Positions 1 through 64,000 of a stretch of 64,000 bases of DNA are shown in pieces. A program made the position numbers and the translations under genes. The notes below the pieces were generated by a model. The model searched no databases and was not told the DNA's origin. It saw nothing but the letters and a program-made list of their open reading frames with translations. This stretch comes from Eledone cirrhosa (lineage: Eukaryota). The stretch is from positions 37,510,001 to 37,574,000 of the forward strand of contig OZ024754.1 in the NCBI GenBank assembly GCA_964016885.1. The letters run 5' to 3'. Positions within the stretch are counted from its first letter, which is position 1; each line of letters begins with the position of its first letter.

Positions 1-56
1 TGGGTACTTCGAGTTTTAGAAATTCACACACACACAGTTTTATATATATAGATATA
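1..56 (+). mobile_element. 3' end of Helentron/DINE-1-like non-autonomous element
   Basis: ttcgagttttag...(CA)n-tttatatatatagat ending, same layout as 8750-8850 and 15670-15770. Confidence 0.4.
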
Positions 57-239
57 CTATTGTTGTTTCTTTTTTATGCAAGTTAGTGAATGAATGGAGA
101 ACAGTGACCCTGATCTTTCCAGAAAGTCTCAACCAGGTACAATTGATGCAGTTGCAGTTGGTATTTAGATTGATCCGATCTAGATCGAAGGATGCAGAAA
201 AGATCGGGTGGGTATGGTGGAACTGTCAGTGAATTGCAG

Positions 240-317
240 GAATGGCTCTTCCAACGCATCTCCCTTACCATCCTCCGGGAAACGCCTTCTCTATTCTGTC
301 CGCCGGGGCTGTGGGGG
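240..317 (+). mobile_element. CRE-clade non-LTR retrotransposon C-terminal fragment
   Basis: EWLFQRISLTILR, then frameshift, then NAFSILSAG; matches the QRxSxxIxRGNA C-terminal motif of CRE-type elements. Confidence 0.65.
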
Positions 318-699
318 CAGCCAGCACGCGGGACCCCATTTGCTCTCATACAGAGAGATGGGGACGGCGAGAGAGATGGAGGCGATGAGAGTGGGAGTTC
401 GACTCTTCCGTGTTCGGACATATTGCACCTGTCATGTGGATCATGTGATAAATTACTTGTTTCATTACTTTACACGAATAATTACTTTTCTCCTGACAAT
501 CCTTGATAATTCACAACGAAGGTGTTTTTGTTTTCCTGATCTGAGAGATGAGATCTTGTAAATGTGACGCGAAAATGAGAGAGAGGTTTCAAAAAATGCC
601 CTAAGAAATACCGTATGTCAATATGGTGTCCTTACGATTCCCTCAAGAGTTACGGGTCTGCACTCTACCATATTCCTGGTATTGTCATTTAATTAAATC

Positions 700-1075
700 T
701 GGCTGAGTGTTTAGAGAATTGGATTCGCAATCATGAGGTTGTGAGTTCCATTCCCGGACCGGGCGATGCGTTATGTCCTTGGGCAAGATACTTTATTTCA
801 TGTTGCTCCTTCTACCTGGAGTTGCGACCGATAGATAGTATTAGCAATTGGAAAGACCAATGGAAACATTGTTTCCTCGGTCCGATTTGACGAAAGTCGA
901 TCGACATTTTTTTTCTTTTTTTAAAGAATTGACCTGGTACTAAGCATTGACCAGGAATAGACATTGGTCAACCCAGTCTACTGTACCAACTGTCAGTACC
1001 ATAGAATTGATAAATATGCCCGAACGCGGAAGAGCCGAACTCCCACTGCCATCGCCTCCATAGATTCCTTCCTTC
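700..1075 (+). mobile_element. CORE-type tRNA SINE with extended composite tail
   Basis: tRNA-like head (gttgtgagttccattcccgg) and ccttgggcaagatactttatttca core; tail recurs inverted at 24320-24950 and 27645-27845, and in part at 318-425. Confidence 0.65.
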
Positions 1076-1914
1076 AGTTCATATGGGTGTATGAAACAGG
1101 TATATATCAAGCTTACCTGTACAACTACCATTCAATATGGGAGCGAGAAGCTTTGTCTTTCATCCACTTAACACAATACTTGCTTGAATTAACTATTAGC
1201 TTTATGGAGCCTTATACTTTGGTAAATAATTGCTATTCAAATTCAATTGTTGCTTATCTTCTCTAATAATTTTCTTCAATGGTTAACTCTGAGGTTTATC
1301 TCCTTTTTATTCGCAATGTAATGTATTTTGAAATTCCAAAATCAATTAATATATTTTAACAACAGGCGCAGATTGGTTATAGAAGAAGGTTAAATGTTTG
1401 ATCTGTTTATCAAGCTGCTTAAGTAAGAATATGTGAAGATGTTTGGCGAAGTGCTAGTGTGAGATATTATTAGATGGTGTTTGAAACGAACCAGAGCAGG
1501 AAATTTCATCGCAAGACGTCCTATGTAAATAGCCAGGCTTTTTATAAATATCCTGCATATTAGGCGAAGTGTGACTATCGTAACACAGATTTTAAGATAT
1601 GAAGTATTTCTATTCTTCGTTCGAGTTGAAAACTAGTCAATCGCAGACTTAGTTTATGATGCGATAAAACTCTAGGTGAGTTTTTCAGTATCCTATAGCG
1701 ATACTGAAATCAATGTGCTATATCTTACTAGGGTGTATGTATGGATCCGTAACTACTAATGGAGTTGTAAGGACACCGAAGTGATATACGACATATCTTG
1801 TACACTTTAAACCTGGTGGTGCGCATCCCATTTCCAGGTCTGAACATAACCGGTTTCTTCCAGAGAATGGAAGAGAAAAAAGGTATAGAGAAAAAATTAA
1901 CCCCAGTATTGGAC

Positions 1915-2057
1915 TGGTTTATTCCACCGAGGTTAACTTTGGCCTTTCATCCTTACGGGGTCGATAAAATAAAGTACCAGTCATGGACTGGGATCGATTT
2001 AATCGACTTTTCCCTCCCCCAAAATTGCTGACCTTGAACCTATATAAGAAGCCATTA
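1915..2057 (+). mobile_element. Meta-type SINE, partial
   Basis: cctttcatccttacggggtcgataaaataaagtaccag core shared by about 25-30 copies in the window. Confidence 0.75.
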
Positions 2058-2105
2058 TTATTATTATTATTATTATTATTTTTTTTTTTTTTTTTTTTTT
2101 TTTTA

Positions 2106-2141
<36 letters not shown>

Positions 2142-2454
2142 CTCGAAAGGATGAAAAGCAAAGTTAACTTCAGCAGGATTTGAACTCGGAAAGCAAAGGT
2201 CCGGAATGAATACCACAAAGCATTATATCGGGAAGCCAGAACTTACATTATCCAACACGCCCTTATTGTATGGCGTCAGCAAGGTATAATTTGAGCTAGA
2301 TCTGGCAAAGTAACAATATATTCAGACAATAACATGGGGAAACATAGTCCCTTGTATTAATGTCTTTCTCGGGTATTTTAATCCCGAATATGAGGTTCTA
2401 GAATAGAAAATATCTCTCAACGTTTGTGACAGACTGAAGTACATATGTGTGTGT

Positions 2455-2700
2455 GTGACAGCTCACACCTATGCAGGTTTAGCTGGCCTCCCCCAAAGTA
2501 TATCTCGTCGGAGGTGTCTTGGTTGATTTAATGACAGGGACCCCAGTCCTATCATCTCATTTCTACAGCTGAGTAAACTGGAGCAACGTGAAATAAAGTG
2601 TCTTGCTCAAGGAAACAACACATCACCCGATCCGAGAATTGAACTCACAACCTTTCGATTGCAAGCCCAATGCTCTAACCACTAAGCCATGCGCCTTCAC
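2455..2700 (-). mobile_element. CORE-type tRNA SINE
   Basis: minus strand: ggcttagtggttagagc (A box), gagttcaattctc (B box), ccttgagcaagacactttatttcac core; same tail as 46915-47115. Confidence 0.75.
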
Positions 2701-3277
2701 ATATTTAGCAGTATCTAATAAGCATGGACATATCATTACTGAATGGTTAAGAAGTTTGCTATACAACCGTAAAGTCCCGAGTTTGATCCTACTACAAAGC
2801 ATCTTAGACAAGTGTGAATCCTTATTTACCATAACTTCGGGTCGACCTAAGCTTTGTGGGTAAAACAGTCAGTGGAATGACTTTAAAGTCCCGTCGGGTG
2901 GATTGTATTTGTAATTCAAAGGTTAACATGCAGCTTCTGAGCGAGAATTATATTCATGAGCTGGACCTTTAGTTATATCGTATAACTGAATGCTCATCGT
3001 AGAATCTGACGGAGGTAAATCAATGTTAATGTCACGTATATAGTAAATAAATAAATACGAGAGTCGTAGAGCACCGTCATACAGTATCTCTGGGGCACTT
3101 TTAAATCTGGCGGAGACCAACCCTCTCCAGGTCTAAACACAGCCGATTTGTTTCTATAGAGGAAGAATCGACCCCCAGTACTGGACTGGTACTTTTTTTT
3201 ATCGACCTCGAAAGGATGAAAGGCAAAGTTGACCACGACTGGATTTGAACTCAGAGTACACAATGACTACCGTAAAG

Positions 3278-3471
3278 CAGTCATGTCAAGCATGCGGCCC
3301 TTTACAAGCACACCTTCGGCCCGCACAAAGATTTTGACAGTGCGAGCATGTTTTATCATTGTAATATAAAATGAAAAAAAAAATAGTTGTAATGTGTGCA
3401 ATTGGTTGTCATGTGTGGCCCTTAGACAACACATATGTGATCCTCGGGGGACCCTCAGTTTGACATGCCTG
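3278..3471 (-). mobile_element. hAT-type MITE inserted in a Meta-type SINE (3165-3520)
   Basis: imperfect TIRs cagtcatgtcaa / ttgacatgcctg; perfect 8-bp TSD CCGTAAAG. Confidence 0.85.
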
Positions 3472-4099
3472 CCGTAAAGCATTCTATCCGACGTCTTAGT
3501 GACTGTCAATACGCCGCCTTCAAATACTACATATATGCTTAAAACACACCCCTTTCGTTTTTGTTTTCCTTTACCTAACATTCTTGTACTTTACGGCAGC
3601 CTTGATTTCTTTCATCAGCCTAAATATTTTCCTCGTACAACTTACTTATACTAAAGGAATGTAGTTATTTTTTTTAGTACATTAGTACAAGACTAATCAA
3701 AATTTCTTCAGGGGCTACTACATGACTGACTACTTGACAAACCCGACTAACTGGAAGTACCATATAACCGATTCTCGACCATACGACATTTTTATCATAT
3801 TTTCCCATCAGTTAATTCTATTCATCTTAATGATATGTTAATATCATTGACCGATTTCTAACATGTGTCATAGCCACAAACAGCCTGCTTACATTACAGC
3901 GCCGACATTTCTAATAATTAAAGACATTATAGATGTAACTTATTCACTCCCAACAAGATCTGAGAATTTAAAAATCTAAATAGTATATAAAAGTCCTAAT
4001 AGTATATATCAGTCGTAAACAGAGTTGAGTTAACTATTCAGAAAAATAAGTACATGCGTGGGATATCAACGGAAGAGGGACAATAATTTATTTAAATTA

Positions 4100-4454
4100 C
4101 CATATTTCCCGGCGTCGAAGACTCTACTTTTTCCCTAAAATAAGACTAAAAAAATCTACCATGCGTCCTGGAGGCTGAAGGTTGTTTATTATTTTTGGCA
4201 GTATCGGTAGAGGGTCGGACGCCATGCTTTCCAGCATAGTTACGTCCCTTTACGATCTGAGTTCAAATCCCGCCGAGGTTAACTTTGCCTTTCATCCTTA
4301 CGTGGTCGATAAAATAAAGTACCAGTAATGCACTGGGTAATGGCTGGCCTTGTGCCTAAAGTAGAAATAATTCTTTTTTTGTTTTCAAATTTTTGGTTGT
4401 CAAAATCAGGGTGCGTCCTCTGGGACGAAGGGTCTTCGGCGGTGGGAAATACGG
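4100..4454. mobile_element. pogo/Tigger-like MITE carrying a Meta-type SINE (4195-4372)
   Basis: TA-ccatatttcccggcgtcgaagac ... gtcttcggcggtgggaaatacgg-TA imperfect TIRs with TA TSD. Confidence 0.7.
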
Positions 4455-5405
4455 TAAATGCATTTGATAGAAGAACTAGAAGGCAGCAAAAGATGTGACA
4501 TCACAAGGATCTGACACGATTCCTCGGCCCCACATGGCTCAGTATGACTAGATATAGGAAGCTGTGAAAGTCAACTAGGGAGAAGTTCCTCCAATATGAG
4601 GGCGAAGCCCCTGGATTTTGATTTGGAAATGCATTTGTCATTACAAAAAAAAACAAAAAAAAACGCAAACATAATATATAGGGGGTTGCGGGGACACCAT
4701 AACCTTTTAAGTGCTAAAAGCCTTAAAATGACCCTGATCTTAAAATGACCCGACCCTGATCAAATCTTAAATATTGAATGGGAACGCAATCCTAAGGCCC
4801 TGAGTATGATCTTACTGAGGGGTATCTAGGGTACCTATCCTTTAATATAAATCTCCCAGTCCTTGGGAGTTAATCTTGGTAGACAGACACTGTTTGGAAG
4901 CCTGTTGGATGGGCAGTACATAAAATTGATGATAGCCAATGAGAACGTTTGTATATATTAGGTTTTTCGTCTCGAGGTGTGTGTGAAAGAGAGGGGGGGA
5001 GAGAATGAGTGTGTATGAGAGTGTATGAGAGAGAAAGAGAGTATAAGAGAGAGAGAGAGAGAGAGAAAGAAAGAGTGAGAGTATGTGTGTGTGTGAGATA
5101 GAGAGTATGCCTATGTGTATATGTTGTACACACGTGTGTGAGTGTATGTGGGGAAGTGTATGTGTGTGTGTGTGTGGTACTGTTAATATATAGAATGTTT
5201 TGGGTGTCAAGCTGGAGTTTGACAGATAAAAGGATCTTTTAAAAGGGTCAACAACGGAAAACAAGATAAATAGAACCACACACACACACATAAACAACCA
5301 TACACACAAACAACCATACACACAAACTCGCAAACACATACACACACACACACAAACGCGCACAAACAAACACACATAAACAACCATACACATTCACACA
5401 CCCAT

Positions 5406-5458
<53 letters not shown>

Positions 5459-5879
5459 GCGAGAATAAACCAAAACAGAATTTGGATAAAAATAGAAATA
5501 AGAACATTTATGAAATTTGCCATTTCCAGGCGTCTCACTCGCTTTCAACGAAAACAACAACGACAACAATAGCAGCAGCAGTAGCTACAGCAATGGTGTC
5601 TAACATTGGCCCTGTAGCAAGGTCAAGCCGCAAAGAGATCGAATTTATTAAAAGAAGCGGGAAATTCTCTGTTTGAGCGGAAGTTGAAAAAACATATCAG
5701 TACGCGGATAACGATTGGCTTAACTTAGCCAAATAACGAACGGATAGAGTATCAATGCGCCAAAGGAAAGTAGCTTGCTACAGCCCAAAGCCAGACGTTT
5801 TGAAAAGGACGATTTAAATTTATCCCAGTGCATAACTGGTACTTTATTAAGTAATTGTGTTGATCGAATCGACATAATA

Positions 5880-6312
5880 ACAATGGTTTTTGATTCAGGC
5901 ACAAGGCCAGCAATGTTGGGGAGGGGAAAGTCGATTAAATCGACCCCAGTACATTACTGGTACTTTATTTTATCGACCCTGTAAGGATGAAAGGCAAAGT
6001 TAACCTCGGTGGAATCTGAACTCAGACCGTAAAGGGCCGTAACTATACAGCAAAGCATGGCGTCCGACCCTCTACCAATACTACCAATCCAACGCCCTAA
6101 TAATTGTTTTTATATTTAGGCACAAAGCCAGCAATTTTAAGGGGAGGGGAAAGTCGATTAAATCGGCCCCAGTACATTACTGGTACTTTATTTTATTGAC
6201 CCTGTAAGGATGAAAGACAAAGTTGACCTCGGCGGGATTTGAACTAAGACCGTAAAGGACCGTAACTCTATGCTGCCAAGCATGGCGTCCGACCCTCTAC
6301 TGATACTAGTGC
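5880..6312 (-). mobile_element. Two tandem Meta-type SINEs
   Basis: two full copies (about 5880-6100 and 6102-6312) with tRNA head and Meta core. Confidence 0.85.
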
Positions 6313-7415
6313 CATAATAAGATCAACAACTGAAATAACAACATCAGCAATATTTAGAATGCGTTGACTATTAATAAATGCATGTACATGCATAAAATAT
6401 CCACTTCATAATATTTAGTACATACATATTCTATAATAGAAACACAGTTAAAGGATACACTCACAAATCACACATGCGCACGACCGTATGCGTTCGTAAG
6501 GAGAAAACAAAGGCGTAGAAATTTTCCAGGCGATAAATTATATTTGAACGAATTAGTATTAATATATTCAGAATGATGAATTAAATTAGATTTGCTTTAG
6601 CACGGGAAAATTTAATTTTTTCCTTTGTAAATAAAAAGGAGAAAAGAAAAGAATATATCTTCATTGAATCATTCTCAAACATTTCTTTTAATTAAATAAA
6701 TATAGGCAAATAACAAACATACACATATATATCCACAAACAAATATGTGTAGATAAACACACACAAATGTGTGCTCAAACATACACACAAATATGTGCAC
6801 AAACAAATGTGTGTACAAACACACGTTTTCCTCATCTCTCTACTACTGATTCCTAACTTTTAGCCCTCTCCGACCTATCTCGCTTTCTCTCTCTCTCACA
6901 CACACACACACACACTAGCAGAAGTACCCGGAGTTAAAGAAAATGATGAAATTTTATTCAAAACTCAATATATTTTTTAAATACTTATTGTTGATTAGTG
7001 ATTCTAATATTGGCATAACAAATTCTGTGAGATCAACAACAATAATAAATTTAAAATAAAAAAACCCCATAAAAGTAAATTATTATTTCTACTTTTGGCA
7101 CAAAGCCGGCAATTATCCCACTGCATTACTGGTACTTTATTTTATCGACCTCGTAAGAATGAAAGGCAAAGTTAACGTCGGCTATGATAGAAATTCGGTA
7201 AATTCTTAAAACACTCCCTTGATTTTTGTTGGAAATAATTATATTTCTTTGGTTTGTTTGTGAGCTATCAATTAATCTCATCTCAGACTATGCAGCAAAT
7301 GATTTTTCTCTGGCAAACGGAAGAGAGGGCACACATTCGGAGTTTTCCCCTCCCATGGAGTTTTCTCCATATATTTCTACCCGCCGAAATGCGATTCTTG
7401 CTGAATATATATATA

Positions 7416-8837
7416 GCTGCAGTACCCGGTAATACCCGGGAAAGGTGGGGTTATTCGCAGTTCCCAGAGTGCGCCTGAAAATGGTAGCTACCCTTGATGC
7501 ACATACTGGATTTTCAATAGCAACCTTTGCTAAGTGTGTTTATGGCTGATCAATTTTTTTTTTGTGCGGAACTATCAATAGCTGTTTAAGTCATAAGTCT
7601 TTCTTCCATCCAACTTTCTTCATTCAGAGTGAATAAGCCGGGGAAGTTTGAGCTCGAAGAGTATCGAACTTATTTAACAGACTTATGTTTAAGAATAGCA
7701 AACTTACTGCCTTAGCGCTCAAGAACAAACACAGAACAATTGAGGAAGTCATTCCAATTATTGAAGAAATTATAACCGAGTGAACATATTCACGTACTGT
7801 TCAAGCACCCTGTATATCACCGTTTGTAAAGCCCTTCAAATGACTGAAGCAATTCAATAAAACAATCCCGTTTTCCCCCTACTAGTAGACATCTGAACTT
7901 CCCTAAATCGTCACCCTACGTCCTTTTTGCATGATATAAGTTGGGCGATAGGAACAATGAGAGATTTTAAATGTTAGTTCCGTAGGTAACTGCAAAAACG
8001 GCTCAAAGTGACCATTCAACACACTTCAGAAGCTCGACAGTAGTAGTTAACCAAGGAGGGGTGGGGTCATCAGATGAGCTGTGTCGCTAAGCAAATAAGC
8101 AGCGAAACCATTAATCGCTAATGACTCTGTTGGCTTTCTGCATCCTAACATTGTAAGCGCACACACAATACATGTGGGTTGCTTTGTGTAAGTTAGTAAG
8201 TTCAAAACTTGGAGTTTAAGTGTTAAGAAATGGAATTGCTGAGATATAGTACTCTTACATAAAGGCATTAAACATAGGTTTTATTGAAAACCCAATGTGG
8301 GCTTGCCGAGTAGTGTTAAGGTTGCAAACAAAAAGACTGTTGTTTAAGTGAAAACGAATGGAATAACTTACGTTTAAAAGAACAATTCGTGTTATGTAAA
8401 TCCAATAGGGAACGCACGGGTTTATATGCCAAGAACAATCTCCCCACGATCCGACACCTCGAAATATCGACAAAATAAACTCTACTCTCAAAGACGCCAT
8501 GTTACAATTAACATGCTGGGAGTACGAATTTGTTACATCGTTTTGGGGGGGATTGAGTTGTGGGAGGAGGAAGGGGAGTAGTGGGAGGGAGGTTTTAACA
8601 ATACAGTAGTAGTATTATCTCCTCTTCCCCCCTCTCTCTCACATAAAACGTCTCTTTCCTCCTCCATTGTAAAGATGTCCCCAGGGGTTCCATTATTGAT
8701 TTTTATTGAAATCCAATTGGCCAGTCCTGTTTTTAAATTTTAGCTTAACATGTGTGTAAAGTTTCATCAGGATCGGATCACTGGTGTAGACGCCAACTGG
8801 TTATACACAGATACACAGACAGACAGAAATTGCCATT

Positions 8838-8845
<8 letters not shown>
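7416..8845 (+). mobile_element. Helentron/DINE-1-like element containing a Tc1/mariner-type end
   Basis: 5' tagctgcagtacccggtaatacccggg; 3' aagtttcatcaggatcgg-(ACAG)n-tttatatat; internal caagcaccctg-TA end near 7803-7814. Confidence 0.45.
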
Positions 8846-8872
<27 letters not shown>

Positions 8873-9059
8873 TAAGTATTTCCGAAGAAAACGCAAAGGA
8901 AAAAAGAGTGCTCTATGTATAGAACAGAGCTATTTAATTAGAAAGTGATCAACACAATATATAACCTTTCTGTCTGATAACCGATCCAGACATATTAATA
9001 TTGTCTAGGGTGCTGAAACCTTTGGTAATGGATTAGTTATATATTGTGTTGTACACTTG

Positions 9060-9127
<68 letters not shown>

Positions 9128-9310
9128 CCTACAGAACCACCTGCCTCTTTGAGGTCAAATACCAACCTACTACCATCTACAAACTGACCAATGAGAATCA
9201 AGACCATTCCTGCTGACAACATCAAAATATTCCTAACAAGCTCATATGTCCCAAGGCTCTGATACCATCAACACTATACACACAGAGCTGGTATATCTAA
9301 GAACTGACTA

Positions 9311-9366
9311 ACTGCCTGATGAGGTCATAGCTATTCAATGGCTATCATCGAAATATATATAGCAGT
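9311..9366 (+). ncRNA. Type I hammerhead ribozyme, family A, in TA-flanked cassette 9125-9411
   Basis: stem I ACTGC/GCAGT; CTGATGA; stem II atagctatt/aatggctat; GAAA-tatata-TA; AATAAA immediately downstream. Confidence 0.8.
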
Positions 9367-9411
9367 AAATAAAGGATTATGAGTTCATGCAATTGACTTA
9401 TGTTTCGTCAC

Positions 9412-9466
<55 letters not shown>

Positions 9467-9676
9467 AGAGAGAAATACATATACAAATACATACACAGAA
9501 TGTGTGACGAAAGAGCTTTGACAATATATAAACAACCTTCCGGTTATCGAACCAACCAAACAACCAGCCATCCAGAAATTTATAATAAATTGAAGTGAAA
9601 ATCAACAGACGCGGGTAGTTTTATTGGCAGCATGACCCTCCCAAAGAATAACAATGAGTATATATATATATATATA

Positions 9677-9954
9677 ATGAAGGAAATGTGGTAGGGAACC
9701 AGGTGGACCATAACGCACCAAAGTACTCAATACTTAGGGTAGTAGAGTGGGTAATAGGAACGAGTAGGACCCCGACGGCTGAGCTCAAGCCGTTTCGACG
9801 GCTAATTCTGTAGCCGTCGGAGTCCTACTCGTTCCTATATATATATATATAGGAAAATATTCATGAACATTTTCCTATTACCCACTCTATTACCGTAAGT
9901 ATTGAGTACTCTGCTGCGTTATGGTCTATCTGGTTCCTCACTACACTTCCTTCG

Positions 9955-9956
<2 letters not shown>
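9677..9956. mobile_element. TA-embedded cassette family C, two fragments
   Basis: aggaaatgtggtagggaaccaggtggaccataacgcacc... repeat with about 10 copies in the window, each abutting (TA)n. Confidence 0.75.
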
Positions 9957-9990
<34 letters not shown>

Positions 9991-10122
9991 GTAGAAGTTC
10001 TATTTAAATTGTTGGGATACAACAAGCAAATATTTTTATAACTGATATAAAGCACTCAACAAATAATTGGAGTAAAAATACGATATATTAACAAATGGAA
10101 ACTATATTTATAAAACCATATT

Positions 10123-10187
10123 TATTTCATTATACATATTTCAAGGACACCAAGTTAAATTATGGTGTGCTTTCATCAGATAAAATA
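10123..10187 (-). ncRNA. Type I hammerhead ribozyme, family D
   Basis: reverse complement of the 12613-12677 motif. Confidence 0.75.
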
Positions 10188-10409
10188 TAATATAGAGCAG
10201 TTTTATAAATAAATATTGACATACCCTTAAAAAAATGCAACCATTACTGTTGGAAGCTCCCGGGACCTTCCAACAGTAGTGGTTGCACTCTTCAAGGGTA
10301 CGTCAATATTTATTTACAAATTTTGTAAAAATTTGGTAAAAATATGCAAGGGTCAGAGCACTCAGTCCGTAAGAAAAGTTTAGTATAAATAGTTACAACA
10401 GTGACATAA

Positions 10410-10459
10410 ACAGGTACTTAAGTTTCGTTGGGTCCTGGGCCCCAACTCATTCAGCCTGT
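10410..10459 (-). ncRNA. Type I hammerhead ribozyme with CUGAAUGA core, family E
   Basis: ACAGG-CTGAATGA-gttggg..cccaac-GAAA-cttaag-TA-CCTGT. Confidence 0.65.
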
Positions 10460-10578
10460 CATAATAAAAATAAAGAAAGACTGAATGAGTTGGGGTCCAG
10501 AACCCAACAAAATTTAAGTACCTGTTTATGTGCTTGTTGTAACTATATATATATATACATATATATTTTATAGAAGCA

Positions 10579-10683
10579 GCTTCTACAGGACTAGTACTGT
10601 TTCATTCAGATGAAATCTTCAGGAAGCTTCAGGAGCTTCCTGAAGATTTCATCTGAATGAAACAGTACTAGTCCTGTAGAAGC
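10579..10683. ncRNA. Inverted pair of hammerhead ribozymes, family B (minus 10579-10627, plus 10635-10683)
   Basis: GCTTC-CTGAAGA-tttcatctgaat-GAAA-cag tactagtc ctg-TA-GAAGC on both strands. Confidence 0.75.
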
Positions 10684-10773
10684 TCCTTCTATAAAATAAA
10701 ATAAAAAAATTTTACTCTGCCATGTATTGTGTACCTTACTCTGTGGTTATCCCCGACTCAACCCGGGACCTAC

Positions 10774-12343
<1,570 letters not shown>

Positions 12344-12525
12344 GAAAAAGTTCAGGACCCCGACGGCTAAGCTCCTGCCGTTTCAACAACTAAATCTACC
12401 TGTTGAAGCGGTTGGAACTCAGCCGTCGGGGTCCTGAACTTTTTCAGTTTACCCACTCTACTACCCCTAGTATCGAGTACTCTGGTGAGTACTGGTCTAA
12501 CTAGTTTTTACCGCTTCCATTCTGA
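12344..12525. mobile_element. Diverged family C cassette with fold-back
   Basis: gaaaaagttcaggaccccgacggct ... agccgtcggggtcctgaactttttc inverted arms. Confidence 0.7.
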
Positions 12526-12612
12526 TATATATATAGAGAGAGAGCTTCCAACAGTAATGGTTGCATTCTTTAAGGGTATGTCAATATTTATTTATAAAAC
12601 TGATCTATATTA

Positions 12613-12677
12613 TATTTTATCTGATGAAAGCACACCATAATTTAACTTGGTGTCCTTGAAATATGTATAATGAAATA
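12613..12677 (+). ncRNA. Type I hammerhead ribozyme, family D
   Basis: TATTTTAT-CTGATGA-aag.acacca..tggtgt.ctt-GAAA-tatgta-TA-ATGAAATA. Confidence 0.75.
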
Positions 12678-12716
12678 AATATGGCTTTATAAATATAGTT
12701 TCCATTTGTTAATATC

Positions 12717-12787
<71 letters not shown>

Positions 12788-12844
12788 TGTGTGTGCCTTG
12801 GGGATATGGCGAATGGGGTAGAAAATCCTCAAACAATATATATA

Positions 12845-13262
12845 TAAGTTTATCCCGGGTTCAATCGGGAGTAACCACAGTAAGTAAGGTACTCAATACA
12901 TAGCAGAGTATAAATATTTAATATAGAAATGGCTTTTACAGGACTAGAACTGTTTCATTCGGGAGAAATCATCAGGAAGCCGATCGGTAGAGGTTCGGAC
13001 GCCATGCTCTGCAGCATAGAGTTACGGCCCTTTATGATCTGAGTTCAAATTCTGCTGAGGTTAACTTTGCCTTTCATCCTTACCGGGTCGATAAAATAGA
13101 GTACCAGTCACACACTGGGGTCGATTTAATTGACTTTCCCCTCCCCAAAAAATTGCTGGCCCTGTGCCTATATAAGAAACCAATATTACTTGGACAGTCG
13201 GCTTCCTGATGATTTCTCCAGCATGAAACAGTTCTAGTCCTGTAGAAGCCATTTCTATATTA
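12845..13262. mobile_element. Family B HHR inverted pair (12931-12981 minus, 13200-13250 plus) enclosing a Meta-type SINE (12983-13187)
   Basis: GGCTTC-CTGATGA..GAAA cag..ctg TA GAAGCC motif on each side of the SINE. Confidence 0.75.
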
Positions 13263-13524
13263 TATATATATGCGTTAACCTAATATATCCCTTCCATATA
13301 CTGTACCGATTGTGTTGTTATTTCCGTTTACCTTTTACATACATATATATATAGCGGCGATGAATTAGTTTTGCGAGGTTTTTTATATGAAATCGTGTGT
13401 CGAAACAAATATTGTTATACTTGGGGAGGGTCATATTTGTGTAATATTGCCAGAATTAATAACAGAACACACTCACTATAAAAAAATGGCGTAGACATAC
13501 AACACAATAGGAGGAAAATATAAC

Positions 13525-32051: not shown

Positions 32052-33061
32052 TTGGTCTAAAACATGTATGTATGTCAGTTTAAAATATGTATGCACATAT
32101 ATATATATAGAAATATATATACCTCGACTGCGTTTGTCTGATTCTCTCTTACTGCTTCCCTGCGCTCTCTGTTTCTCTCACCTTCTTTCGCCCCCCCCCC
32201 CCCTGTCAGTTACACTTTTTCTCGACTGACCTCTTCCTCACACTTCCACTCACTCACTCTCTGTTTCTCCCCTTCTCACTTCCTCCCGTTTGGCTTGTAG
32301 TGGGATTCTTCTTGCTTACATCTCACACACATCGACACGGTCTGTACCTCTCTCGCTCAGGAAATCCACCTAGCTTATGCTGACCGGACAACCATGTTGC
32401 TTGTTTATTTTCCTATCTTCGGTTTGCTTTTATCCTTCTATGTTGTTTACTTGTCCCCCTCGCTTTACGCGATTTACTGGTCCCAATAACTTTTTTTAGT
32501 TATTGCTCGCACCAACCTGAGGTATCTGATTTTTAATGCGATGAAATACCAATGATGGTTGGAAAATCACTGACGAAGGACTATTTTTATCATATATATA
32601 TATATATACTGTATATATATATATACTGTATATATACTGTATATATATATACTCTATATTTATATATATCGTGTATGCTTGAGAGAGTATCAAACTAGAA
32701 ATATAGTATATGTCTCTAATGTAATTACTTCCACTGGGTTACTAATATATTTAAGATCAACTCTGAGGTCCACACACAAGAATCCTTCCCGATTATTCAA
32801 TGGAAAAACCATTGATCTTTTAGTTTGATTTTGTTACATCTAATCCAGGTTTTCTTTTGTTTCTATTTGTTTTCTTTAATATTTATTTTTGTTGTTGTTG
32901 TTTTTTGTGCTTTTTTGTTTGTTTGTTTGTTTGTTTTGTTGTTTTTTTTTTGTTGTTTTTTTTGCAAATTATATTTTGGCTTTCATTCAAGAAATATGAG
33001 TAGGATGTTTGAGCATCAAATTTATTGTCATTTTTTTCCATGTTGTAACAACTTCTTCTTT

Positions 33062-59816: not shown

Positions 59817-60430
59817 TACACTTCATTCCTTGTGTATGATTTAGTAAGTAATTTGAAAATTTCTTCTATACTTATTTTAAAAGTAGTGAATTTGATAGTC
59901 ATTATGTCACCAAAACAAGAATAAGAAAATCTGATTTGGTCTCAGCTTGCCATAATAGGAAACACACCACTTTAGCTGAATAATTTTTTTTTTTTTTGTC
60001 ATATCTTCTGCTAGATTTTTAATGTTGATTCAAATCTATGTTGATATGTATGTCTTTCCATTGCAATGCTACCATACAGTATCTCTAATTTAATAAGGGA
60101 CTGAAAGGTTTTCTTTTAAAAGTATTTTCAATGAAACTCCTCCCAATCTGATTACTAAATTGAACATAAAAATAAAAATACGATTCTGATAATTCCTAGC
60201 ATTCAAATCAGACGTTTACAAATTTTTACATTAAATATTGTTGTATATTTGTGATATTTTTTTTTCTCTTCATGCTCTCTGCTCTAGCTTCCCTGCTTTC
60301 TTTCATTGATTTAAGTCTATGTATCTATATATATATATATATATATATATATGAATAAAGTTAGTCCTTCATCAGTGATCTTCCAACCATCATTGGTATT
60401 TCATCGCTTTAAAGACCATATACATCCGGT

Positions 60431-60679
60431 TGGTGCGAGCAACGGCTAAAATATATATATATGTATGTATGTATATGTATATATCATATATATATATATA
60501 TGTGTGTGTGTGTCTGTGTGTGTATATACATGCATACATACATATATATATATATGATGATTTCTCCCAAAGGAAACAGTTCTAGTCCTGTAGAAGCCAT
60601 TTCTATATTAAATATTTATACTCTGCTATGTATTGAGTACCTTACTTACTGTGGTTACCCCCGATCGAACCCAGGGTAA

Positions 60680-60759
<80 letters not shown>

Positions 60760-60910
60760 AATATATATATATATATATTTATTAAAATAACAGATTAAAG
60801 TTTAATCTGTTATTTTAATAAATATTTGCTCTACGGTTCTTATATATTTGATATATATTTATCCTTATCGAGCCCTCTTTGGATTTTAGTCTTCAAATTT
60901 ATTATTATTA

Positions 60911-61001
<91 letters not shown>

Positions 61002-61358
61002 GAATTACAACTTTGTCTGATTTACTCGTTCTATTTACAATCCTTTAAAATTATAATGATATTATAATGAAATAGTATGGTAGAATATTAAATATTAAAT
61101 GTTAATTGAACAAGTACTTTCATGCTTTCGCAATCTTCAGGTTCATATTCAGTGGTGACAGTCAAGTTGGCAATTGCTAACTTACTTGACTGTCACCACT
61201 GAATATGAACCTGAAGATTGCGAAAGCATGAAAGTACTTGTTCAATTAACATTTAATATTTAATATTCTACCATACTATTTCATTATAATATCATTATAA
61301 TTTTAAAGGATTGGAAATAAAACGAGTAAATCAGACAAAGTTGGAATTCCTTTTATTC

Positions 61359-61390
<32 letters not shown>

Positions 61391-61695
61391 TAATAATAAT
61401 AAATTTGAAGACTAAAATCCAAAGAGGGCTCGATAAGGATAAATATATATCAAATATATAAGAACCGTAGAGCAAATATTTATTAAAATAACAGATTAAA
61501 CTTTAATCTGAGAAATGGCTTCTACAGGACTAGAACTGTTTCCTTCGGGAGAAATCATCATATATATATATATATATGTATGTATGCATGTATATACACA
61601 CACACACACAGACACACACACACATATATATATATATATATGATATATACATATACATACATACATATATATATATTTTAGCCGTTGCTCGCACC
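60431..61695. repeat. Compound palindrome of about 1.26 kb built from four cassette families
   Basis: mirror-ordered inverted arms centred near 61175. Confidence 0.85.
61107..61244. ncRNA. Inverted pair of minimal hammerheads, family L (minus 61107-61145, plus 61206-61244)
   Basis: TGAAC-CTGAAGA-t tgc gaaa gca t-GAAA-gtac-TT-GTTCA. Confidence 0.8.
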
Positions 61696-61852
61696 ATATA
61701 TATATGTGTGTGTGTATCTGTATGTGTGTGCACGCATCTGTGTGTGTATATGTAAGAGACACGCACACACATGTAGATGTACATACATACAAAAGTACAT
61801 ACACACCTACATATACACATTCATCACACAATACACAGAATGTGGGTTTTAC

Positions 61853-63679: not shown

Positions 63680-63985
63680 GCGCGATGCGGAAACACGGTG
63701 TCGGTATATGCGGACGACATCACCGTGATGGCGTCGAACACCTTGAAAATTGAGGTGGTCGGCACCTGCTTGGAGGAATATGAAAAGTTGATGGGAGAAA
63801 AACTAAAACCAGGAAACAGTCGGTGGGCTTGCAGCTCGGCACCTGGAGAGGCAAGTCCATGCCGTTCAACAACATTGTAGGGCACTGGACGGACGGACCG
63901 GTAAAGTTGCTCGTGGTCTGTTTCAGACCAGATCTCCAGTTGGATAAGAATTGGGATGAAGTGTCGATCAGGGTGCATGTCCAAA
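63680..63985 (+). mobile_element. Tx1/L1-type reverse transcriptase fragment
   Basis: VYADDITV..LEEYEKLMGEKL; after a frameshift VGLQLGTWRGK..WTDGPVKLL..NWDEV. Confidence 0.75.
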
Positions 63986-64000
63986 CCAATTTAGGGCTTT

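What the first reader, a model, noticed from the sequence alone, without database searches (positions are those of the whole stretch)
60431..61695. Compound palindrome mirroring four different cassettes around a double hammerhead
Seen: arms pair in mirror order: 60431-60450/61676-61695, microsatellite blocks, family B 60556-60604/61511-61560, 60792-60914/61388-61510, and 60997-61167/61185-61353 with family L hammerheads on both strands. The left arm has extra sequence (about 60605-60790). Inference: one fold-back event copied a pre-existing chain of nested insertions (transduction with inversion). A transcript would form a long dsRNA hairpin.
Basis: partly seen in the sequence, partly recalled or inferred. 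Interest (0 to 1): 0.75.

Follow-up and report, generated by a model that had tools for sequence, protein, structure and literature searches.

The report
Penelope hairpin that mirrored its neighbourhood
This 1.27-kb mirror-image stretch has an ordinary back-to-back pair of Penelope jumping-gene ends at its centre, and its second half likely arose when DNA folded back and copied about 350 bases of the neighbouring sequence on the spot, an accident already known for human L1 elements.

Summary
The palindrome is in the sequence (60431-61696; 4 substitutions in 366 non-microsatellite paired bases; 186 nt missing from the right arm). Its centre is a head-to-head pair of 3' ends of an active Penelope-like retroelement (relatives carry a 775-aa RT + GIY-YIG frame), with one minimal hammerhead per strand. 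That is a known layout, common here and noted before by this scan on other DNA. The unusual part is the outer mirror. Three unrelated repeats are whole in the left arm and cut short in the right. The chain's junction occurs only twice in the 3-Gb assembly, in the two arms. Both central arms lack the tail that one arm carries in 11 of 11 other pairs. So the right arm is most likely an in-place fold-back copy of the left flank (0.76), not transduced cargo (0.08). Two similar mirrors elsewhere are centred on bare TA repeats; one clear case turned up among 118 close inverted repeats in 1.37 Mb. L1 is known to leave such inverted duplications; I found none described for Penelope elements. Public reads could not test the junctions, so an artefact is unlikely but open (0.08).

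The parts
60343..60450 (-). Repeat A, whole 108-nt copy as found elsewhere; only its last 20 nt lie inside the palindrome
   Evidence: matches window 32494-32626 at 87%; copies with nearly the same limits in L038 and L055
60431..60604 (+). Left arm, outer block: end of A, compound TA/TG/CA microsatellite, 5' part of repeat B (hammerhead core cut off at its 5' side)
60605..60790 (+). 186 nt present only in the left arm: long tail of B (to 60681), (CA)5(TA)33 block, first 16 nt of C
60775..60914 (+). Repeat C, whole high-copy 140-nt unit with its own 25-bp hairpin (60775-60825)
   Evidence: 43 near-full-length matches at 96-100% from 40 scored of 745 candidates; no difference from the family majority
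60915..60996 (.). (TA)n target microsatellite, about 42 units
60997..61175 (-). Left L arm: 5'-truncated 3' end (pLTR) of an RT + GIY-YIG Penelope-like element, short-ended, with minimal hammerhead (core starts 61140)
61168..61183 (.). Centre: 8-nt perfect palindrome (61170-61177) where both arms overlap by 4 nt, with a 4-nt duplication and substitutions beside it
61184..61359 (+). Right L arm, also short-ended, with minimal hammerhead (core starts 61211, predicted cut after 61239)
61360..61510 (-). Mirror of the flank, inner block: (TA)8(GA)7 and C, cut 9 nt beyond the tip of C's hairpin
   Evidence: C part identical to the left copy over 124 nt
61511..61696 (-). Mirror of the flank, outer block: 50 nt of B, the compound microsatellite, 21 nt reaching into A; joins (TA)5(TG)n with 1 nt of overlap

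Best explanation
The centre is a head-to-head pair of Penelope-like element ends, and the right arm beyond it is likely a DNA-templated fold-back copy of the sequence that already lay to the left. Shown: the mirror, the family identities, whole repeats on the left against cut repeats on the right, no second copy of the chain's junction, and two short-ended L arms. Inferred: a free 3' end in or just after the L pair annealed back on the same strand, since L arms and TA repeats are self-complementary. A polymerase then copied leftwards through (TA)n and C and stalled in C's 25-bp hairpin. It jumped 186 nt to a 6-nt near-match at the B short end, copied B, the microsatellite and 21 nt reaching into A, and rejoined the right-hand TA repeat, replacing the tail that one L arm normally has. 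I slightly favour a later event at an existing L pair (repair of a break or a replication template switch) over an event during insertion (the first cDNA folding back when second priming failed), about 55 to 45. The product is most likely a neutral scar; it would give a long double-stranded RNA only if transcribed.
For: Direction of copying: A, B and C are whole on the left and truncated on the right, and the left arm continues into A outside the palindrome. No donor: a 31-nt A/microsatellite junction occurs exactly twice in the 2,996-Mb assembly, both here. The best other match to the private B tail is 94% over its full length (40 of 94 candidates scored). No other locus spans A + microsatellite + B (40 of 2,134 scored). 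The two other loci with L next to C are 88-92% identical in L and continue into other sequence. Tail rule broken: 11 of 11 other L pairs with both 3' ends have one long tail and one short end; this pair is short/short. Jump site: the 6-mer behind the nascent end occurs in the searched stretch (60605-60800) only at 60607, 60781 and 60794, and an unrelated locus (L022) joins C's hairpin tip to B at the same 6-mer. Same process elsewhere: L167 mirrors a whole B pair plus about 40 nt of flank with no mismatch outside the microsatellite, its junction also occurring only twice. L025 mirrors another repeat fragment, TA and 66 nt of B around (TA)14. Precedent: L1 insertions with fold-back inverted duplication of target DNA (PMC10191854; bioRxiv 10.1101/2024.12.14.628481). 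A Penelope RT starts at fixed internal RNA sites whatever the RNA's 3' end (PMC11167929), which disfavours 3' transduction.
Against: No empty site or second haplotype was seen, so the starting state is inferred. The DNA searches score only 40 candidates each, and the exact pattern would miss a donor with one change or one absent from this assembly. The jump match is imperfect (3 nt against 2 nt at the 3' end). The right-arm B stops at 60604, a place where B copies also end on their own (13 of 52 matches, but that set was selected by a query ending there; about 1-2 of 27 in the unselected set), which leaves room for a B-driven step. Timing is unresolved: arm differences are 3 of 171 in L against 1 of 195 outside (Fisher p 0.34), and private changes 4 of 350 in L against 0 of 264 in C (p 0.14). 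No listed short-read contig bridges either junction; the tool masks the repeats and warns that holes prove nothing.
Confidence: 0.76

Rival explanations
1. 3' transduction with inversion: a source L copy elsewhere was transcribed through C, B and A, and both arms were copied from that RNA into a new TA site.
For: Both outer ends of the chain abut TA repeats, which fits an insertion site. Penelope elements can carry host DNA: spacers and genes between pLTRs (PMC3846280, passages).
Against: No donor. The known captures lie between pLTRs, not beyond their 3' ends. RT start sites are internal and fixed in vitro (PMC11167929), and L ends here fall into two fixed classes. L167 and L025 show the same kind of mirror with no element at the centre.
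Confidence: 0.08
2. Assembly or library artefact: a fold-back chimera at the L hairpin.
For: Palindromes and TA tracts are prone to such artefacts (general knowledge). The outer arms differ by only 1 substitution in 195 nt. No public read set bridged the junctions.
Against: At 3 of the 4 substitutions the right arm has the family majority base and the left a rare one (1/35, 0/35, 3/50); a copy of the left arm would carry the rare base. The right arm also keeps a more family-like L end and a (GA)7 block typical of C ends, has a 186-nt gap, and returns to unique sequence that contigs of the same species cover on both sides.
Confidence: 0.08
3. Two steps: the outer block (61511-61696) is a separate B-family reverse transcript of a local read-through RNA (A, microsatellite, B), primed at the B short end into the tip of the mirrored C hairpin.
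For: The right B ends where B copies can end, and L022 shows a B arm joined to C's hairpin tip.
Against: It needs a first mirror (C) and then a second event that happens to extend it in register. One polymerase jump at the shared 6-mer explains both facts.
Confidence: 0.06
4. Independent insertions: self-palindromic elements landing one inside another, or abundant repeats falling on both sides by chance.
For: A, B, C and L are all frequent (5, 19, 9 and 5 sites in 600 kb), and chance mirrors of one module occur (2.4% in the swap control).
Against: The irregular 105-nt microsatellite is mirrored letter for letter apart from unit numbers. B points inward, unlike normal pairs. Both B copies are cut at the same 5' base, and the L arms share a rare variant (61094/61257, 2 of 35).
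Confidence: 0.02

Closest known systems
Endonuclease-bearing Penelope-like elements with inverted pLTRs and one-sided tail (Craig 2021 PMC8557442, passages; Arkhipova 2013 PMC3846280, passages; Frangieh 2024 PMC11167929, parts 1-2 of 4)
   Same: Head-to-head 5'-truncated copies, palindrome at the inverted junction, (TA)n target, hammerhead in the pLTR, RT followed by GIY-YIG in full copies.
   Different: Both arms are short-ended, and the mirror runs on about 350 nt into unrelated flanking DNA; I saw no such case in the passages read.
Minimal hammerheads of metazoan PLEs (Cervera and de la Pena 2014, PMC4209133, passages)
   Same: Type I core, short helix I, tiny palindromic helix III; pairs of motifs 100-700 bp apart on opposite strands are described there.
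   Different: The conserved G10.1-C11.1 pair is U/U in family L; activity untested.
L1 insertions with fold-back inverted duplication of target DNA (Nam 2023 PMC10191854, passage: 3 events, 0.3%, 52-220 bp; bioRxiv 10.1101/2024.12.14.628481, passages)
   Same: A self-annealed 3' end primes copying of adjacent genomic DNA at a retrotransposon site; one L1 case was primed by 2 bp of TA/AT.
   Different: There the duplicated DNA is on the other break end and the element is outside the mirror; here the element pair is the centre, the copy is longer and has an internal jump, and the case is in an assembled genome rather than a somatic clone.
Short-range reverse template switching (Walker 2021 PMC7954356, abstract and first part of the introduction)
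   Same: Intra-strand switch at an existing inverted repeat gives a reverse-complement copy of nearby DNA and returns to the template.
   Different: The events modelled there draw on templates tens to hundreds of bases away with one switch out and one back; this one copies about 350 nt beyond L with an extra jump.

Membership tests
Penelope-like elements, EN+ (family L) | Single ORF with RT then C-terminal GIY-YIG upstream of the same pLTR | tested here: met
   L234: 775-aa frame, RVT_1 E 2.8e-6 (27.6 bits, below Pfam's 29.6 cut-off), GIY-YIG E 3.2e-6 (above cut-off). Its pLTR is 91.5% like the arms; closer copies (98%) lie behind broken frames in L012/L230.
Penelope-like elements, EN+ (family L) | pLTRs in tandem or inverted arrangement with 5' truncation | tested here: met
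   8 other loci with an inverted partner among 40 scored candidates; tandem pLTRs 4.07 kb apart in L230.
Penelope-like elements, EN+ (family L) | 30-40 bp tail on one arm only | tested here: not met
   Met by 11 of 11 other L pairs, not by this pair (short/short). This departure is the mark of the secondary copying, not of another family.
Neptune/Nematis clades | CX2-5CxxC linker before the nuclease and CCHH motif in it | tested here: met
   Read by eye in the L234 frame against the description in PMC8557442.
Neptune/Nematis clades | Placement on the RT tree | not tested
   No tree built; Neptune against Nematis left open.
Minimal type I hammerhead of PLEs | Core CUGANGA...GAAA...UH with helix I closing | tested here: met
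   Own descriptor, one hit per strand; 30 of 37 matches in other loci are identical over 39 nt (some loci counted twice). No Rfam hit; folding z -0.92, not better than shuffles.
Minimal type I hammerhead of PLEs | G10.1-C11.1 pair | tested here: not met
   U and U at these places in both arms and in the family majority (feature from PMC4209133).
Minimal type I hammerhead of PLEs | Self-cleavage | not testable with these tools
   Needs an in vitro assay.
Retrotransposon 3' transduction | A donor locus holding the element and the same flank | tested here: not met
   limits: 40 candidates scored per DNA search, exact pattern only.
Fold-back inverted duplication at a break or stalled fork | Copy adjacent to its template, self-complementary centre, short overlap at the return point | tested here: met
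   adjacent template, 8-nt palindrome at the centre, 1-nt overlap into TA at 61696.
Fold-back inverted duplication at a break or stalled fork | Ancestral allele without the copy | tested here: inconclusive
   A related organism's contigs cover the right flank but none crosses the repeats.
Non-LTR retrozymes | Tandem units each with a hammerhead, no coding relative | tested here: not met
   L is the end of a coding element and is not in tandem here (definition from bioRxiv 10.64898/2026.07.22.740005, part 1 of 5).

The most novel reading that the evidence does not exclude
In this genome, cuts made by Penelope endonucleases in TA repeats, with or without an insertion, regularly end in fold-back copying of host DNA. 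Thousands of such compound palindromes would exist (about 2,000 by extrapolation, 55-12,000), and short/short pairs like this one would mark insertions where the first cDNA primed itself and ran on into the chromosome. That would be a genomic read-out of the unresolved second-strand step of Penelope transposition and a source of new hairpin RNAs.
Probability: 0.3. Interest if true: 0.55.

Novelty: new variant of a known kind. Interest (0 to 1): 0.32.

Why it matters
The centre is ordinary. The outer mirror matters as a clue to mechanism: how Penelope elements finish insertion and form inverted copies is an open question named in PMC8557442 and PMC11167929. A pair that breaks an otherwise strict one-tail rule while duplicating its flank gives a signature (short/short plus mirrored flank) that can be counted genome-wide. 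It also shows that local inverted duplication of host DNA, known from L1 in somatic human cells, is present in an assembled invertebrate genome. No function is indicated for this locus.

Tried and rejected
Rfam at gathering thresholds: 0 hits in the window. Sequencing runs: no RNA holder listed, which says nothing about expression. Laying contigs of three runs of one sample, one of another sample, one of a related organism and one raw RAD-seq run: repeats were masked, high-copy fragments swamped the tables, and no listed piece bridged the centre or the C/B junction; no verdict. Summed depths were not used as copy numbers. Splicing as the cause of the 186-nt gap: no GT-AG on either strand that gives the right-arm junction (read). 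A single stem-loop closing at the gap's ends: not predicted by DNA folding. Ribozyme cleavage as the cause of the B break: the predicted B cut is about 12 nt away and this B lacks its core. A-to-G editing scar in the arms: none; only 1 of 4 differences is of that type. Centre symmetry as a clue to timing: rejected, ordinary pairs also have near-symmetric centres (output partly cut). The apparent hot spot of B ends at 60604 was mostly a selection effect. Of 17 rows with a further mirrored word among 118 close inverted repeats (2.8 expected), two rows are L167; L150 and L093 may be older cases; the other 13 rows were set aside by eye as interrupted arms of one element, tandem arrays or divergent independent copies. 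L048 and L098 are ambiguous. Pfam did not detect RT in the 210-aa fragment, only in the 775-aa frame.

Full report
Observation. The region 60431-61696 is a palindrome. Aligning the left arm with the reverse complement of the right gives, from outside in, 21 nt at the end of repeat A, a 105-nt irregular microsatellite, 50 nt of repeat B, 124 nt of repeat C, a TA block and 171 nt of repeat L, around a 16-nt centre. The left arm has 186 extra bases (60605-60790). Outside microsatellites there are 4 substitutions in 366 columns.

The centre. The L arm has 1,363 first-look candidates in the 2,996-Mb genome; of 40 scored, 8 other loci also have an inverted partner 12-42 nt away. Six of the 18 other fetched loci run on upstream into a shared body that encodes reverse-transcriptase and GIY-YIG pieces. 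A search with one piece returned 150 scored matches of 20,403 candidates, many in an open 775-aa frame. One such frame hits RVT_1 (E 2.8e-6, just under the curated cut-off) and GIY-YIG (E 3.2e-6) and lies upstream of an L-type end. The CX4CxxC linker and CCHH motif, read by eye, point to the Neptune/Nematis type (PMC8557442, passages); no tree was built. L is therefore the 3' pseudo-LTR of an active Penelope-like element. In 1.37 Mb of unselected DNA L ends occur at 5 sites, so roughly ten thousand genome-wide. Head-to-head truncated pairs, a palindrome at the junction, TA targeting and a one-sided tail are described for these elements (PMC8557442, PMC3846280, passages), and so are hammerhead pairs on opposite strands (PMC4209133, passages). 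Rfam finds nothing. My descriptor finds one minimal type I motif per strand, with U/U in place of the usual G10.1-C11.1 pair and no better folding than shuffles; activity is untested. The animal is called octopus-like only on the word of earlier scan notes; I did not test it.

The flanking modules. A, B and C are separate abundant repeats (5, 19 and 9 sites in 600 kb). B has a full hammerhead in other copies of the window and forms long/short pairs. C is a young 140-nt unit whose 25-bp hairpin is part of the unit, and longer C copies carry a hammerhead-like head (by eye). All three are whole in the left arm and cut in the right: A to its last 20 nt, B to 50 of 127, C lacking its first 16 nt. 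The left arm passes without a break into the rest of A outside the palindrome. The right arm is thus the derived copy.

Donor search. A 31-nt A/microsatellite junction occurs once on each strand in the assembly, both here. A query over A + microsatellite + B found no other locus spanning all three (40 of 2,134 scored). The private B tail has no identical copy (best full-length match 94%; 40 of 94 scored). The C/B junction has no second exact copy (40 of 1,232 scored). Two loci have L next to C in the same order, but their L copies are 88-92% identical and they continue into the C head, not B and A. These searches are not exhaustive.

The tail rule. In all fetched DNA, 11 other L pairs have both 3' ends; all 11 have one long tail and one short end, and this pair alone is short/short (9 of the 11 came from similarity searches, 2 from unselected DNA; pairs in which an arm does not reach the end were not counted). 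The right arm leaves the family sequence exactly where short and long ends part and goes on as the mirror of the left flank. This is what a strand folding back on the left arm and being extended along the flank would give.

The jump and the end. The copy stops 9 nt past the tip of C's hairpin and resumes at 60604. The 6 bases behind its last 3 match the template at 60607, one of three such places in 60605-60800. An unrelated locus, L022, joins C's hairpin tip to B through the same 6 bases. The outer end joins a TA repeat with 1 nt of overlap. B copies do end at 60604 on their own, but the large count (13 of 52) came from a selected set; in unselected DNA it is about 1-2 of 27.

How general. 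In 1.37 Mb of unselected DNA (200 kb beside the window and 117 spaced 10-kb stretches) there are 118 close inverted repeats. Seventeen rows had a further mirrored word against 2.8 expected from swapped flanks. By eye one locus is a clear mirror of flanking DNA: L167, a whole B pair plus about 40 nt of flank mirrored around a TA-rich microsatellite, its junction unique to the two arms. Two are possible older cases (L150, L093), and the rest have simpler explanations. L025, met by chance among B hits, is another clear case centred on (TA)14. One case in 1.37 Mb extrapolates to about 2,200 in the genome, with a 95% range of 55 to 12,000. Because two of the three clear mirrors have no element at the centre, the process is tied to self-complementary centres rather than to L itself. 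Whether a Penelope nuclease made the breaks is not shown.

Timing. L arms differ at 3 of 171 sites and the outer arms at 1 of 195 (p 0.34); C shows no change in 264 nt while L has 4 private changes in 350 (p 0.14). This leans weakly towards a mirror made after C arrived beside an older L pair, but copying during insertion is nearly as likely.

Artefact. At 3 of the 4 substitutions the right arm has the family majority base and the left arm a rare one, which a chimeric copy of the left arm would not give. Contigs of the same species cover both unique flanks with 0-2 differences, but none listed bridges a junction, and the tool masks the repeats. No RNA holder was listed. A read-through RNA is predicted to form 486 bp across the centre; no editing scar is seen.

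Comparison. Fold-back inverted duplication of target DNA is reported for L1: 3 events (0.3%), 52-220 bp (PMC10191854, passage), and experimental and cancer cases explained by self-annealing of a resected end (bioRxiv 10.1101/2024.12.14.628481, passages). Reverse template switching at inverted repeats is general (PMC7954356, abstract and part of the introduction); PMC11724301 and PMC3907307 were seen only as search listings. For Penelope elements, in vitro work shows both strands cut and extended and two fixed internal start sites that bound the tail (PMC11167929, parts 1-2 of 4); self-priming was proposed from junction palindromes (PMC3846280, passages). Searches gave no paper describing mirrored flanks at Penelope pairs; the library lacks most subscription papers, including older Drosophila work, and no supplements were read.

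Verdict. Real in the assembly and probably in the animal. An ordinary Penelope pair with an uncommon in-place inverted duplication of its flank: best explanation 0.76, transduction 0.08, artefact 0.08, two-step 0.06, independent insertions 0.02. New variant of a known kind; interest 0.32.

Noticed in passing
L167:660-1290 (G000:C21, about 15,000,660-15,001,290): Near-perfect second-order palindrome: a whole B head-to-head pair with its asymmetric junction plus about 40 nt of flank mirrored around a TA-rich microsatellite; junction unique to the two arms.
   Followed up: yes
L025:1490-1860 (G000:C28, about 69,603,370-69,603,730): Mirror centred on (TA)14: 43-nt fragment of another hammerhead repeat, TA, and 66 nt of B.
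   Followed up: partly
L150:5950-6370 and L093:5030-5390: Possible older mirrors of flank at about 90% identity; could be independent copies.
   Followed up: partly
window 60775-60825 and L042-L065: The C unit's hairpin turns at the predicted hammerhead cut of the longer C element; in 21 of 21 matched hairpin copies (selected set) the loop base shows the short arm complete and the long arm trimmed, which fits two separately primed cDNAs joined by 3 nt.
   Followed up: partly
L038 and L055: Repeat A recurs in tandem at about 635-nt spacing, like a retrozyme-type or partial Penelope array.
   Followed up: no
G000, one search list (for example C26:20.69-20.71 Mb, C4:322.58-322.60 Mb): Many open 775-aa L frames in tandem and inverted arrays with a 4.2-kb period: an apparently active Penelope-like family.
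   Followed up: partly
window 10560-13280: Cluster of other head-to-head pairs (B at 10559-10770 with both hammerheads intact, another family at 12345-12520, B again at 12848-13271 with an insertion) around a 1.6-kb TA/TACA tract.
   Followed up: partly
loci: Ends of L, B and C often abut (TC)n followed by (TA)n rather than pure TA, which may reflect how the target end primes or slips.
   Followed up: no
window 63680-64000: GC-richer stretch that looks like a decayed coding fragment of another retroelement; judged by eye only.
   Followed up: no
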